Source: Perna viridis
Lineage: Eukaryota
Direction of reading: 5' to 3'
DNA length: 64,000 bases
NCBI GenBank assembly: GCA_037379345.1
Contig: CM074512.1
Span: forward strand, 6,076,001 to 6,140,000
Made by a program: the position numbers. This document shows positions 6,001-55,100 of this stretch, piece by piece. The first letter of the stretch is position 1. Each line of letters starts with the position of its first letter.

Positions 6001-9000
6001 CTTATATAGATAAGGCAAAAGTTGAAGCCAATTTGGGTGTTGTCGGATATCAACTTTATCAATGCTTGGAATATGATTGATTTTCACAGAAATCTGTTGA
6101 GGGGGACACTTATTTTAGACTGAGTGTCCAGTATGAAGGGATGGTGTATTTAGGCTTGCTCACTGTGTTTTTTTTTTACCTTCACCAGGTTGAATGGATG
6201 AGTGACAAGATTCTCAGATCATTTGAAGAAAACAGAAATAACCCATACAATTTGAAACATGTCAGATTGTGTCATAACTTGGCAGAACTTGCAAAAATAC
6301 CTGAACCAAAAGTAAGTAGAAAAATGATCCCTTGGAACTAAGGCTTGTTAGATTTGATTAGTCATTCAATTTTTAGTTCATCAGTCATTGTTTTCCCTAC
6401 AGATCATGTGCATTATTCACTGAATTGGAAAGGAAAATGTGTTTTTCTGCAGTTTGGAAAGCCATTTCAGTTTTTTTTTACATTTTAAGTCCTTTAAAAT
6501 TAGTTTTTACCATGTTAAAGAAAATTTTTCACTTGATTAAAACCATTGATTTTATTAAACAATCAGCTGCTTTGATCAAAAGATTGATATGAATAAGTAG
6601 GACATCTTTTTTGATATCTAAAATAGTAAATGACCAATGGACATTTCCTAAATTTATCTGTCAATGACAGGTATTATTTACCATTTCTGGAGCCTTGTTT
6701 GGGACAGCAGAACTGGCATTTAATTATTTTAACATTGTTGAAAGCTTGATTCTGGACCTGCAGAATTGTTTTAAGTTGACCTTTGAAAAACACTGCTGGA
6801 ATAATACTGCAGATTAAGACTTTGGGTAAGTTAAGTGTTCTTCAGTAAACCAGGTGACCTAACAAATGATGTCTGTCGAATGTTGATTACTTAAAATTTG
6901 TTGAGTATTATCATGGTCGATTTCGACCATGCAGATTAGTTAACTATACAATAACAAAACACATGATTAAATCATATTGACAGATTAAAATCTTTTGAAT
7001 TTTTTAAATTATGAAAGAGTAATCAAAGGAACCAAGGTTATAGCGGTAATCAAAAGAATGTAATACAGGGACAAAGACCAGACATGGAAAACAGACATTC
7101 ACAACAAAGAACATTAAGTAACTAAAATCATACATACAAAGTAACAAAAGTAAATGAGCTGGACCAGGTGTACCGGTAGGGTAAGCATCCTCTGCTTTTC
7201 TAGAAACACCCGCCGAGTTGCTCATAAAAAGTCAAGTCGAACAATGGAATGGAATAAAGGATCATCCTATTTTATTGTATATGAAATTATTATTTATAAT
7301 TATGTCACTGTGCAGATAACGATTGTAGTTTGTTGTCTTTCTTTTGTCAAAATTTATGTAGTTAAGAATAAATTACTCTATGAACTCAGCTTTTAAAGTT
7401 TTATATGACCACCGATATGAAAACAGCTTTTCATAAAATTATGCCATTTCACTTAACAAAGCTACCATTTACAAGTGATAAGAATTATCCGAATTTCGTC
7501 ATGAAAGATGGCTCATTATTAAAGAAACATCCGTAATACCAAAAAGACTGTTACTAAAAATAGAACAATGTCTGGTCAAAATCATCTGCATTTTTGTGAA
7601 CCTGATTCCATTCCTAATATAAAATTTCCAAAGTGACTTTAGACAATTTTTTCAGTTTCACACGGTTTTTCATAGACAGGCCCTTAATGTTGTTTGTGTT
7701 GTTATAGGAGATGTGACATGAACATTATTTTATTATTGATACTTATATTTATAAAACCCTAGTATGTTTATTTACAAGTGTGACAAACAGGATGATAGCA
7801 TTAAAGTACTGACACTCCATGTATTGTACTTTCAAATATTTTAATGATAAAATAAATGAGCCTGGAAGGTTTATTATGACCCAGTGATAGGGTTTAGCGA
7901 CCCATGGCACAAGTGTTGATTGTGATTGACAGGCAGGTGTAGGACTTTCATAATAATATAAACAAGCATTTCATTTGCTTTGTGGAATTTGAAATAAAAC
8001 ATTGCTAACTTGAAACAATTGTACAATAAACATGTGCTAGGTGAAAATTGATGAGTTTGACTTTTTATGATCAACTTGACAGGTGTTTCTAGAAAAGCAA
8101 GGGGATGAACATTATGAATTATTTCTATGGATTAATCTTCAAACAGAAGTGGAATCTTTTAGTATTCAGAATAATTTTTTTCTGACAGTTCATCATTTTC
8201 TTCTAAAAATGGTTTAAATTGATATGTCTGAATGTAAAGATTTGCTGGCAAACCAGAACTTCCCCTTTTTTCCACTCTCAGTTGTAGAAATTATGCAGTA
8301 AGAGTGAAGCCCCAGACAAATCAACTGTCTATGTAAAAATTGAGAACCAATTAAGTAACACAGTCACTTGACCACATGGCTAATTTTGATTGTATGGGTC
8401 ACCTGCAATTTTGAATCTGTTTATTTTTATTCAAATAGTGTAATAAACTTCAAGGAACATTTTCATTGTATATACAAAATGTATTTGATATAACAAAGAA
8501 AAAGTTAGAAAATGAAATTTTTGTGTCACATCACCTTTTATTTGCACTGCTGTCATCCATAGACATTTGGTTTTCTTCACAATAACTTACAACATTAGTT
8601 GATGGATCAGGATAACGTTTTACGACAATTAGGTACCATATTTTAAATGGAAACTTGATAATGCTTTTATGATCTTAGCGGCTTTGCTCCAACTGCTGAG
8701 GAATAAGTGGCATAAAGGGGCATTTTGTTTTTGTTACTTTAAACTTTAAGTGTAAATGTATGGATCTTTTTTTTTGAAATTGCACCACAAGGTTCTGAAT
8801 CACTAAGATGCTGCTTGGATAATTTTTTTTTGTTGGAGTGGTGATGGGGGCATCATGAGCTTACCTGAATAGAAATTGGCTAAAAAGGGCAAAAGTACTT
8901 GAATTTTTTTATTTCTGGGCAGTAACTTGAGTAAAAGTATGAACCACTGTGAAAATATGCTACAAAGTTCCATACCATAGAAAGCAGTGATTGAAGGAGT

Positions 9001-52100: not shown

Positions 52101-55100
52101 TTGTTTTTATTTTTAGGTTGTTCTGGCCAGTGTCCCAGATTTACAATGTGGATTTTCCAGAGATTTGTTTTTGGCTTGGTGTGGCAGTTCAAAGAACAGC
52201 ATTATTCTGACCAATCGAACTTCACCAGGAACTTTAGCCAGATATCTAATAGAGAATCCACAAAATAAAACAGTAACCATGGAGGTGAGAAACTGAATGA
52301 TCACCCTTTAAATGAGCTGATATCTGATTTTCTGAGAATAATGCAGATCATGACAAGTATCTATATTAACCTATTTCTGATGTGAATAATAATGCATTCC
52401 TTAACAATCTCCTTCAAATAATATGTATAATGTCACATGTGACGCTTTCTGCCCAGGTTTGTGTTTTCATATGACTATCTGTTATCCAACATTCCCAATG
52501 TCTCATGTGACATAATAAAAAAGAAAGTCTCATGTGACCTATATCAAATTCTCAATGTCTTGGGTGACATAATCAAATAGTAAGCAGTCTCCTATGACCT
52601 ATTTCACATTCTTAATGTCTCATGTGACATAATAAAAAAGAAAACAGTCTCCTGTAACTTATCTCACATTCTCAATGCCTCATGTGACATAGTAAAAAAG
52701 AAAAGTCTCCTGTGACTTATCTCACATTCTCAATGCCTCATGTGACATAATAAAAAAGAAAACAGTCTCCTGTGACTTATCTCACATTCTCAATGCCTCA
52801 TGTGACATAGTAAAAAAGAAAAGTCTCCTGTGACTTATCTCACATTCTCAATGCCTCATGTGACATAATAAAAAAGAAAACAGTCTCCTGTGACTTATCT
52901 CACATTCTCAATGCCTCATGTGACATAATGAAAAAGAAAACAGTCTCCTGTGACTTATCTCACATTCTCAAAGCTTCATGTGACATATTCAAAAAGAAAA
53001 CGGTCTCTTTTGACCTATCCGACATTCTCAATGTCTGATGTGACCTAGTCAAATGGAAAACAGACTCCTGTGACCAATCCCACATTCTCAATGTCGGATG
53101 TGACCCAGTCAAATGGAAATCAGTCTCCTGTGACCCATCCCACATTCTCAATGTCTGATGTGACCCAGTCAAAGGGAAAACAGTCTCTTGTAACCTGTCC
53201 CACATTCTCAATACCTCATGTGACATAATAAAAAAGAAAACAGTCTCCTCTGTCAATATCTGACATTCCCAATGTCTGATATGTCCCAGTCAAATGGAAA
53301 ACAGTCTCCTCTGTCAATATCTAACATACTCAATGTCGCACATGACAAAACCAAATATAAAATAGTCACCTGTGACCTAACCCCTCTGACATGTTGAATG
53401 CCCCATGTGACCCAGTTTTATTATAAAAAGTCTCTTGTGACTATATCTGACAAATTTAATGTCTCACTAAACCAAATTTAATTGAAAACAGTCTCCTATG
53501 ATCATATCTTACATGTCTCACAACACTCAAGGAAATTCTCTACATTTGAACCAATTTATTCTTCATGAGTTATCTTTTGTCTTTCCTCTCGGAAGTTTAA
53601 TATCCTTTTTAAAAATGTGAATTATAATGAAATTAATACATGTGTCTGTTGAACATTCCTTATTTGGTGACTATTTATAAATTTGTAAATATACAAACCC
53701 AGTAGATTAGTTGGAAGTTAACTTATAAGCTTAATATTTTTATAATAGAGGAATGATTTTGTGAAAGTATTTATGCTGAAAAAAAGTTTGTGTGTGAAAC
53801 ATTTGGTCAAAGTGTTTGCTCTGTTCAGTCCCTCACTTGATATGAAACCTAAAGTGATTATCAGAAGGTCAGCTGATGTATTTGTTTGTTTGTTTGTTTG
53901 TTGGGGTTTAATGACCGAGCAGCAATATTTCAGCTATATTCAGGCGATGAACATGAAATGATGATGAAATGAAAAATGGGATGGGACACAAGGACAATGG
54001 GGTCGAGCAATTTTGATTGCCACTGGAAATAGGTGGGTAGGGTTGGGCAATTTAGCCTCCTATAGTGGAGCCCTATGGTTCCTACTCCGGGAGAATACCA
54101 CAGTAGGGTTTTTTAACGTGTGAGGAAAGTGGCATCTTTCCCAACACGGTGCATCACTATGGTTGTGGTCAGGTTTTCTGTATTATAGCCTGACACCCCA
54201 GCATACAACACGCCAGCGGTACCCCATTCCACCACCTGGGGCACATAACTCAGTTGCTCAGTAGGCAGAGTGCCCTAGCTCCCGGCTAGGGTTCTGAGCA
54301 CTATTTACTCGCCTTTTATGACAAGCTTATCGCTGCTGCAGGCCTATTCTTTTGACACCTGGACCTGCACGGGGCCAGCTGATGTATTACTTGGTGATAA
54401 AAGTGCCTAAAATGCTGTTGTAAACATTTGAAAAGACTCCAAACGTGAAACAGGAGTACAGAACAAATTTCAACACTACATGGAAAACTGTCGTCCATTG
54501 GTTCCAAAGCAAAAAAAATACTGTGTTTTATATGACAAATAAAAATATTTATAAAAATCCTCCTGATATGAGCACTTATTAGACCAAAGTTTCAAAATCT
54601 CCTGATTTGAATGAAAATAGTTACATGTGACCCTACCTTCATATATAATACTACATGTAGTACCTTATCTGTTATTAAAATAAAAATATTCATAAGTTAC
54701 CTTACTCCCTTAATGATAGTTGTTAGTCAATAATTATTTTCTAGCACCTTCTGTGATCAATCATTGTGGTGAAAAATGTCTCATTTATAATTAAATTAGT
54801 CAAATCTAACAACAAAATTTTCATTGTTAACCATTTTGAAAATCCAATCATCTTGTTTTGAAAACATTTAAAAGGGTAATGGATAAAAAACTGCATTAAC
54901 AAATTTGATAAGACAGTAACTGGCTTAAAAACATTGAATGATTTAGGTTTGAGGTTTTTCTATTCCGTTTTTCTTCTTTTCTTTAGTGGGGAAAAGTGAG
55001 ACATTGTAAAACATCAATTAGATGTGTCAGTTCTCAATGGCTGGAAGATGTTCTTTCTTTAAAGCTATCAAAAAGGGTTATAGAAGTGATGTTACATGGT

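What the first reader, a model, noticed from the sequence alone, without database searches (positions are those of the whole stretch)
6312..52116. Giant CPSF2 intron containing an antisense nested neuropeptide-receptor gene
Seen: neighbouring introns are 0.3-1.1 kb, but this one is 45,805 bp, and the next is apparently over 11.7 kb. It holds an intact GPCR on the opposite strand. Established: nested antisense genes, often with intron-poor CDS, are a known arrangement. Inference: a neural receptor must be transcribed against a ubiquitously expressed 3'-processing gene, and part of the unique intronic DNA may be receptor regulatory sequence. I do not know of this host/nested pair being described.
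Basis: partly seen in the sequence, partly recalled or inferred. Interest (0 to 1): 0.65.

Follow-up and report, generated by a model that had tools for sequence, protein, structure and literature searches.

The report
Neuropeptide receptor gene inside CPSF2 intron
A mussel-like genome carries an intact neuropeptide F/Y-type receptor gene on the opposite strand inside a 45.8-kb intron of the housekeeping gene CPSF2; this is an ordinary kind of gene nesting, although this pair seems to have stayed linked across molluscs.

Summary
Five CPSF2 exons lie on the + strand: 3778-3893, 4216-4304, 5442-5540, 6189-6311 and 52117-52284. The 45,805-bp gap between the last two has a GT donor at 6312 and an AG acceptor at 52115-52116, in phase 0. 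The two flanking exons match human CPSF2 residues 284-324 and 325-378, so no coding exon is missing. They also match consecutive residues 283-323 and 324-379 of a 755-aa near-identical protein, P0002, whose longest contig is 2,440 nt and so must be spliced.

The only recognisable gene inside the intron is a single-exon 367-codon receptor on the - strand at 23364-22261 (Pfam 7tm_1, 4e-49). In a tree it falls among molluscan neuropeptide F receptors, including the two with proven ligands, from Haliotis and Lymnaea.

Linkage to CPSF2 looks old. Patella caerulea has consecutive locus tags for the two genes.

This is a new example of a known arrangement. Expression, transcriptional interference and regulatory content remain untested. 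Interest is modest.

The parts
1..3777 (+). CPSF2 intron, incomplete at the window start (at least 3,777 bp)
   Evidence: No CPSF2 match upstream of 3776 at tblastn E<=50. Acceptor AG at 3776-3777.
3778..3893 (+). CPSF2 exon A (about residues 181-220 of P0002)
   Evidence: tblastn. Splice sites read. 36 of 38 whole codons identical to P0002.
4216..4304 (+). CPSF2 exon B
   Evidence: 29 of 29 codons identical to P0002 residues 221-249.
5442..5540 (+). CPSF2 exon C
   Evidence: 33 of 33 identical to P0002 residues 250-282.
6189..6311 (+). CPSF2 exon D, the last exon before the giant intron
   Evidence: Matches human CPSF2 residues 284-324 at E 1.6e-13. 41 of 41 identical to P0002 residues 283-323. 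Followed by a GTAAGT donor.
6312..52116 (+). Giant CPSF2 intron, 45,805 bp, phase 0
   Evidence: GT at 6312 and AG at 52115-52116. 32.6% GC, 18.9% tandem repeat, 24% any repeat detectable within the window. No Rfam family and no tRNA. Of 113 ORFs of at least 62 aa, only the receptor has a strong Pfam match.
22261..23364 (-). NPF/NPY-type receptor CDS: one exon, 367 codons plus stop
   Evidence: Pfam 7tm_1 at 4.3e-49. Collinear with P0121 residues 1-367 at 99.5%. Best solved-structure matches are the PrRP receptor at 1.6e-46 and NPY2R at 8.8e-44. Groups with deorphanised molluscan NPF receptors. Class A motifs are intact.
23415..23416 (-). Candidate 3' splice site (AG after a T-rich tract) 50 nt upstream of the ATG, implying an upstream non-coding exon
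   Evidence: Read from the sequence. An in-frame stop at 23412-23410 lies between it and the ATG. This is an inference and is not confirmed by RNA.
23474..24201 (.). 37-bp minisatellite, about 20 copies, immediately 5' of the receptor coding exon
   Evidence: Tandem Repeats Finder.
21529..21534 (-). First canonical AATAAA downstream of the receptor stop, about 730 nt away; candidate poly(A) signal
   Evidence: Pattern scan. An ATTAAA lies at 21715-21710. Inference only.
52117..52284 (+). CPSF2 exon E, the first exon after the giant intron
   Evidence: Matches human CPSF2 residues 325-378 at E 8.2e-21. 56 of 56 identical to P0002 residues 324-379. Donor GTGAGA at 52285.
52285..64000 (+). Next CPSF2 intron, incomplete (more than 11.7 kb)
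   Evidence: No credible CPSF2 match on the + strand. None of the ORFs of at least 62 aa in the two flanks (41 in all) has a Pfam match.

Best explanation
This is an ordinary host/nested gene pair in a pteriomorph bivalve. By its closest named relative the species is mussel-like; it was not determined.

The host is CPSF2 (CPSF100), read on the + strand. Its exon for residues 283-323 is spliced across 45.8 kb to the exon for residues 324-379.

Inside that intron, on the - strand, sits the species' orthologue of the molluscan neuropeptide F receptor (the NPY-receptor family). Its coding sequence is a single exon. It most likely has its own promoter and at least one non-coding 5' exon further up the intron.

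The two genes are taken to be independent RNA polymerase II units that converge. The receptor would be expressed mainly in ganglia, as its abalone orthologue is, and the host everywhere.

The intron is large because it has to house the guest gene and whatever controls it, and because it has accumulated minisatellites and transposon debris. The intronless coding sequence is the ancestral state of this receptor family, not a sign of recent retroposition. The linkage to CPSF2 predates the split of bivalves and gastropods.

Shown here: exon and intron anatomy, receptor identity and integrity, and linkage in other molluscs. Inferred: the promoter, the 5' exon, tissue expression, and the absence of functional coupling.
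For: Splice sites and phase were read from the sequence.

The flanking exons map to adjacent residues of human CPSF2, 284-324 and 325-378. They also map to adjacent residues of P0002, 41/41 and 56/56 identical, compared exon by exon. P0002 is 755 aa and its longest contig is 2,440 nt. That length cannot hold introns, so a spliced message joining these exons exists in the same or a very close species.

Receptor evidence:
- 7tm_1 at 4.3e-49.
- 191 homologues with E<=0.001 among 2,300 candidates, 120 of them listed. These include Haliotis 'NPF receptor' at 48% identity and Lymnaea GRL105 at 51%.
- The tree of 38 rows puts it in a starred 7-row clade with six unnamed sequences. That clade lies among bivalve sequences of an orthogroup that also holds the two deorphanised gastropod receptors.
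- D2.50, the C3.25/ECL2 cysteine pair, DRY, WxP and NPxxY are all present. The cysteines are shared by 34 of 34 aligned sequences.
- The abalone paper states that Hdh-NPFR has no intron in its ORF and is expressed mainly in cerebral and pleuro-pedal ganglia (PMC8536682: passages, sections 6 and 10).

Linkage evidence:
- In Patella caerulea, CPSF2 is SNE40_010244 and the receptor is SNE40_010245, on a contig of the same length.
- The annotated CPSF2 models of Mytilus edulis, Lymnaea stagnalis and Elysia crispata begin their CPSF2 homology at or within a residue of the one that follows this intron. That is 3 of the 12 truncated or odd-length models compared. It fits a long, hard-to-bridge intron at this position in those species too.
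Against: No RNA evidence from this genome was available. The junction rests on a database protein from an unnamed source that is 195/197 identical over whole codons, not on reads from this assembly.

Linkage failed in 3 of 7 comparable species. Contig lengths differ for Octopus bimaculoides, Nucella lapillus and Limulus. The Limulus receptor is a distant outgroup in the tree.

Consecutive locus tags show adjacency, not nesting.

The position of the receptor's 5' exon and promoter is unknown. It could lie outside the intron, and the genes would then be interleaved rather than strictly nested.

Position 6.47 is F where 20 of 34 relatives have C, though 8 of 34 share F.
Confidence: 0.82

Rival explanations
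1. The nesting is functional. In one version, CPSF2 introns serve as the receptor's cis-regulatory landscape, with CPSF2 as a bystander, and this locks the pair together. In another, convergent receptor transcription in neurons reduces or truncates CPSF2 transcripts and so links neuropeptide signalling to 3'-end processing.
For: Linkage is kept across bivalves and gastropods. About 76% of the intron is not repeat detectable within the window. There are 61 AATAAA and 56 ATTAAA on the host strand of the intron, so premature host polyadenylation is physically possible. Published work on other host/nested pairs reports interference (PMC13309782 and PMC3192792; search listing and start of abstract only).
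Against: Nested pairs tend to stay linked simply because the guest cannot leave without damaging the host (recalled, not from a call). The poly(A) hexamer counts were not compared with a control and are expected to be high in 33% GC DNA. No expression data or conserved non-coding sequence could be examined. Linkage is absent in 3 of 7 species compared.
Confidence: 0.12
2. Assembly artefact, or two partial CPSF2 copies. The 5' and 3' halves would belong to different loci or haplotypes joined by mistake, and the receptor would really be intergenic.
For: Bivalve genomes are repeat-rich and heterozygous (recalled). 19% of the interval is minisatellite. The Mytilus edulis model is split at this point.
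Against: The window has no N. The exons lie in the same order and on the same strand, with canonical sites in a matching phase. No duplicate CPSF2 exon is present in the window. Models in two gastropods break at the same residue. Receptor-CPSF2 linkage is seen in four other molluscs assembled independently.
Confidence: 0.04
3. The receptor is a recent processed retrocopy or a decaying pseudogene that landed in the intron by chance.
For: The coding sequence has no intron. An A-rich run lies about 120-140 nt after the stop.
Against: The ORF and all class A motifs are intact. Relatives at 99, 86, 76, 75, 72 and 72% identity are all full length. The ORF is also intronless in the abalone orthologue (PMC8536682). 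A splice-acceptor-like site lies upstream of the ATG. No second receptor copy or fragment is present in the window. Linkage is old.
Confidence: 0.02

Closest known systems
Hdh-NPFR of Haliotis discus hannai and the Lymnaea stagnalis NPF receptor (GRL105/GPCR105)
   Same: Same orthogroup in the tree. 48% and 51% identity. About 370 aa, with two N-terminal N-glycosylation sites and a DRY motif (PMC8536682 section 6). No intron in the ORF (PMC8536682 passages).
   Different: The ligand is unproven here. Position 6.47 is F instead of the commoner C. The genomic host of the abalone and Lymnaea genes is not stated in the passages I read, and the supplementary figures on gene structure were not seen.
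Vertebrate NPY2R and the PrRP receptor
   Same: These are the best solved-structure matches, at 8.8e-44 and 1.6e-46 over nearly the whole 7TM core. The abalone paper says that NPYR2 has no intron in the region where NPYR1 has one.
   Different: They are distant relatives, not orthologues of one another in any simple sense. From memory, the human genes do not lie in CPSF2; this was not checked.
Host/nested gene pairs in opposite orientation, as catalogued in mammals, Drosophila and C. elegans
   Same: A complete coding gene lies in one intron of a larger gene on the other strand. [quoted passage not shown] The opposite nested configuration has been studied in C. elegans (PMC12274878, start of abstract).
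   Different: This particular pair was not found in the library. No expression interplay has been measured here.
CPSF2/CPSF100 of other animals
   Same: The exons match human CPSF2 residues 284-378. Mollusc CPSF2 proteins have all four Pfam domains.
   Different: Only about residues 181-379 lie in the window. The intron after residue 323 is 45.8 kb here, and intron sizes in other species were not measurable.

Membership tests
CPSF2 (CPSF100) | Closer in sequence to CPSF2 than to the paralogue CPSF3/CPSF73 | tested here: met
   Exon E scores 75.5 bits (8.2e-21) against human CPSF2 and 32 bits against CPSF3. Exon D hits only CPSF2.
CPSF2 (CPSF100) | Full architecture: metallo-beta-lactamase, beta-CASP, RMMBL and CPSF100 C-terminal domains | tested here: inconclusive
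   The window holds only residues of about 181-379. The near-identical P0002 carries PF16661, PF10996, PF07521 and PF13299 in its precomputed annotation. The window's exons were not joined or scanned as one model.
NPF/NPY receptor family (class A GPCR) | Seven-transmembrane rhodopsin-type fold | tested here: met
   PF00001 at 4.3e-49, covering positions 2-260 of a 260-position profile. 626 solved GPCR chains match at E<=1e-10.
NPF/NPY receptor family (class A GPCR) | Class A microswitches and the disulfide pair (D2.50, C3.25, DRY, ECL2 Cys, WxP, NPxxY) | tested here: met
   All are present. Conservation among 34 aligned sequences is given. Residue 6.47 is F (8 of 34) rather than C (20 of 34). 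The motif names are recalled.
NPF/NPY receptor family (class A GPCR) | Orthology with receptors shown to respond to NPF | tested here: met
   In the maximum-likelihood tree of 38 rows, the window protein sits among bivalve sequences of a 35-row starred lophotrochozoan set (molluscs plus two annelids). That set also contains Haliotis NPFR and Lymnaea GRL105. Their deorphanisation is stated in PMC8536682. No sNPF-type receptor was in the tree as a contrast.
NPF/NPY receptor family (class A GPCR) | Activation by the species' NPF peptide | not testable with these tools
   This needs a cell-based receptor assay.
Host/nested gene pair | The guest coding sequence lies wholly within one host intron | tested here: met
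   The CDS at 22261-23364 lies inside the intron at 6312-52116.
Host/nested gene pair | The host exons on either side are spliced to each other | tested here: inconclusive
   Support is indirect. The exons match adjacent residues of P0002, whose longest contig is 2,440 nt, and of human CPSF2. No reads from this genome were available.
Host/nested gene pair | The whole guest transcription unit (promoter, UTR exons, poly(A) site) lies inside the intron, and both genes are expressed | not testable with these tools
   Only a candidate acceptor at 23416-23415 and an AATAAA at 21534-21529 were seen. No RNA data were on hand.

The most novel reading that the evidence does not exclude
The NPF receptor has sat inside this same CPSF2 intron since before bivalves and gastropods diverged, more than about 500 million years ago by my recollection of the fossil dates. 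That would make it one of the oldest host/nested pairs known in protostomes. On this reading the arrangement is held by constraint rather than inertia. The long introns on either side of exon E would carry the receptor's neural enhancers, and receptor transcription in neurons would collide with CPSF2 transcription and shift the output of a core 3'-end processing factor.
Probability: 0.3. Interest if true: 0.5.

Novelty: new member of a known kind. Interest (0 to 1): 0.3.

Why it matters
The finding has a practical use. This intron splits CPSF2 gene models in at least three annotated molluscs, so knowing that it is one gene with a guest inside corrects those annotations. It also gives the location of the mussel NPF receptor, a feeding-related receptor studied in abalone and apple snail.

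Conceptually, a conserved antisense guest in a gene of the polyadenylation machinery is a convenient natural case for studying transcriptional interference outside model organisms. Nothing here yet shows that the pairing has any consequence.

Tried and rejected
- **Paralogous receptors or fragments elsewhere in the window.** tblastn with six receptor proteins found only the one locus. The next best hit had E 0.015 over 30 aa and was treated as noise.
- **Hidden CPSF2 exons.** None was found inside the intron or in the flanks at E<=50.
- **Other genes.** There was no Rfam family at gathering score and no tRNA. Nine of ten large ORFs had no Pfam hit at E<=0.01, and one had a weak DUF3880 match below its cut-off.
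- **Pfam scan of intron ORFs.** There are 116 ORFs of at least 62 aa overlapping the intron. I dropped the 3 that overlap its two ends and scanned the other 113. Apart from the receptor, the scan gave 2 weak Tc3-transposase HTH matches (best 6.6e-05) and single weak matches to ten other families, which I did not locate and take for chance or repeat-derived. A follow-up on 10 chosen ORFs did not locate the Tc3-like ones; it returned 0 families. The flanks gave 0 of 41 ORFs.
- **Accession look-up.** The listing of cluster members, meant to give accession numbers as a test of adjacency, was not sent because the shared database is off.
- **Paper search.** One paper-search term was malformed and I did not resend it.
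- **Synteny by coordinates.** This was impossible.
- **Spliced model.** The joined CPSF2 model was not built, translated or searched. Every comparison was made exon by exon, or with the database protein P0012.
- **Supplements.** Supplementary figures of PMC8536682 (gene structures, tissue expression) could not be seen.
- **No structure prediction, complex prediction or representative-library search was run.**
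Full report
**What is in the window**

The 64-kb window is 31-38% GC when read in 2-kb windows, contains no N and is rich in minisatellites.

A 55-residue translation of 52117-52281 found 223 proteins at E<=0.001 among 234 candidates. Nearly all carry the CPSF2 domain set. One unnamed 755-aa protein, P0002, is 100% identical over that stretch. The closest named protein is Mytilus edulis 'CFT2' at 95%. I therefore take the genome to be a mussel-like pteriomorph bivalve. 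I did not determine the species, and I do not take the contig for human.

**Host gene anatomy**

tblastn with P0002, P0003 and the named scallop CPSF2 (P0012) maps five + strand exons; Mytilus P0006 matches only the last of them. The sequence around each exon shows canonical splice sites:

| Exon | Coordinates |
|---|---|
| A | 3778-3893 |
| B | 4216-4304 |
| C | 5442-5540 |
| D | 6189-6311 |
| E | 52117-52284 |

- The introns between exons A and D are 322, 1,137 and 648 bp.
- The intron D-E is 6312-52116, which is 45,805 bp. It runs from GTAAGT to a T-rich tract plus AG, in phase 0.
- The window starts inside an intron of at least 3,777 bp.
- The window ends inside an intron of more than 11.7 kb, because no further exon appears even at E<=50.

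- Taken singly, exon D matches human CPSF2 residues 284-324 and exon E matches 325-378. Exon E scores far below this against CPSF3.
- Taken singly against P0002, identical whole codons are 36/38, 29/29, 33/33, 41/41 and 56/56. Exons D and E cover residues 283-323 and 324-379.
- Nothing coding is therefore missing from the intron.
- P0002's longest contig is only 2,440 nt for 755 codons, so a spliced message joining D to E exists in the same or a very close species. This is indirect evidence and does not replace reads from this genome.

**The guest gene**

The longest frame in the window is 22261-23409 on the - strand.

- From the ATG at 23364 it encodes 367 residues.
- It matches Pfam 7tm_1 at 4.3e-49.
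- It aligns without a gap to P0121 at 99.5% and to five further unnamed relatives at 86-72%.
- Identity then drops to about 50% for named bivalve and gastropod proteins. These are variously labelled NPY receptor type 5/6-like, NPF receptor-like or PrRP receptor-like.
- Among solved structures the best matches are the human PrRP receptor and NPY2R.

The abalone study states several relevant facts (PMC8536682: passages, sections 6 and 10):
- Hdh-NPFR is 57.4% identical to the deorphanised Lymnaea receptor (GPCR105).
- Its three NPFR-like paralogues are only 23-27% identical.
- None of these genes has an intron in the ORF.
- Hdh-NPFR is expressed mainly in cerebral and pleuro-pedal ganglia.

The window protein is 48% identical to Hdh-NPFR and 51% to GRL105.

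A maximum-likelihood tree of 38 rows broadly follows mollusc phylogeny. It places the window protein in a starred clade with the six unnamed close relatives. That clade lies among the pteriomorph bivalves of an orthogroup that contains both deorphanised gastropod receptors. The 38 rows were the window protein plus 37 of the 120 listed hits, chosen because they were named or were close relatives.

D2.50, the C3.25/ECL2 cysteine pair, DRY, WxP, NPxxY and two N-terminal glycosylation sites are present. The motif names are from memory. I conclude that it is the intact NPF-receptor orthologue.

**Features around the receptor exon**

- A T-rich tract ending in AG at 23416-23415 (- strand) precedes the ATG by 50 nt. 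An in-frame stop lies between them, and there is a three-codon upstream ORF at 23396-23385. I read this as a 3' splice site for a non-coding 5' exon located further up the intron. This is an inference.
- A 37-bp minisatellite (23474-24201) abuts it.
- The first AATAAA on the - strand after the stop is at 21534-21529.

**Rest of the intron**

- 18.9% is tandem repeat, and 24% is repeat of some kind detectable within the window.
- No Rfam family and no tRNA was found.
- 116 stop-to-stop ORFs of at least 62 aa overlap the intron. I scanned the 113 that do not overlap its two ends.
- Only the receptor has a strong Pfam match. Two ORFs weakly match a Tc3 transposase HTH, and ten further families have single weak matches.
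- None of the 41 such ORFs in the flanks matches anything.
- No second receptor copy or fragment is present.

**Is the pairing old?**

No eukaryotic genome collection was available, so I used what the protein tables show. Seven species are named, with a contig length, both in the receptor list and in a CPSF2 list.

|---|---|---|---|
| Mizuhopecten yessoensis | 1,243,300 | 1,243,300 | yes |
| Gigantopelta aegis | 120,622,278 | 120,622,278 | yes |
| Mya arenaria | 71,350,902 | 71,350,902 | yes |
| Patella caerulea | 80,400,781 | 80,400,781 | yes |
| Octopus bimaculoides | 96,881,196 | 127,476,059 | no |
| Nucella lapillus | 3,689,099 | 549,811 | no |
| Limulus polyphemus | 357,347 | 650,218 | no |

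- In Patella the locus tags are consecutive: SNE40_010244 for CPSF2 and SNE40_010245 for the receptor.
- The Limulus receptor is a distant outgroup in the tree.

I also compared 12 truncated or odd-length CPSF2 models with the scallop protein.
- Three begin their homology at or within a residue of the one that follows this intron. They are Mytilus edulis (after 193 unrelated low-complexity residues), Lymnaea stagnalis and Elysia crispata.
- The Batillaria model ends at the next intron.

This fits a conserved, long, hard-to-annotate intron at this position in both bivalves and gastropods. It proves linkage and adjacency, not nesting.

**Comparison with what is known**

Genes nested in introns, mostly in opposite orientation, are common in animals. 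[quoted passage not shown]

Searches for CPSF2 with 'nested gene' found 2 papers. CPSF2 with 'neuropeptide Y receptor' found 1 paper. A four-term search on nested intronless GPCRs found 0. By their titles and abstract starts the three papers are unrelated to this pair.

The finding is therefore a new example of a known arrangement.

**What remains open**

- Transcription of either gene in this species.
- The receptor's promoter and 5' exon.
- Any interference between the two transcription units.
- The coordinates of the pair in other species.

Supplementary files of the abalone paper, which show gene structures and tissue levels, were closed. The cluster look-up and the Atlas look-up did not complete.

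Noticed in passing
window 14197-14539, 14930-16296, 26673-27399, 30206-31134, 39187-39849, 46443-47252, 52489-53379, 56806-57412: There are many long minisatellite arrays with periods of 22-72 bp and up to about 35 copies. Several give long spurious ORFs in multiple frames. They make up 18.9% of the giant intron.
   Followed up: partly
window 16650-17057 (-) and 35644-36123 (+): Two ORFs come from one dispersed repeat family, with 73% nucleotide identity over 411 bp (35997-36406 against 16852-16490). The first contains a YMDD-like motif, which from memory is reminiscent of a reverse transcriptase. Neither has a Pfam match.
   Followed up: partly
window 1790-2250 and 45367-45827: A 462-bp dispersed repeat, 91% identical and in the same orientation, lies in two different CPSF2 introns. 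Further copies of another element lie at 36318-36531 and 47262-47475 (95%) and at 7014-7238 (83%, inverted).
   Followed up: no
giant intron; exact ORFs not located: Two of the 113 intronic ORFs weakly match the Tc3 transposase HTH domain (best E 6.6e-05), which suggests Tc1/mariner debris. Ten candidate ORFs tried afterwards were not the ones.
   Followed up: partly
database proteins P0006, P0016, P0019, P0023: Annotated CPSF2 models are truncated at the introns that flank exon E. The Mytilus edulis, Lymnaea stagnalis and Elysia crispata models break at the giant intron, and the Batillaria attramentaria model breaks at the next one. The Mytilus model also carries 193 unrelated low-complexity N-terminal residues. 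These are probably annotation errors caused by long introns.
   Followed up: yes
database protein P0001: A 978-aa protein labelled UNVERIFIED_CONTAM from a sturgeon assembly holds overlapping CPSF2 segments that are 73% and 52% identical to scallop CPSF2. It looks like a mis-joined model; whether it is a contaminant was not examined.
   Followed up: no
window 23396-23385 (-): A three-codon upstream ORF lies in the receptor's presumed 5' leader, out of frame with the main ATG.
   Followed up: no
This suggests a lineage-specific duplication on one chromosome.
   Followed up: no
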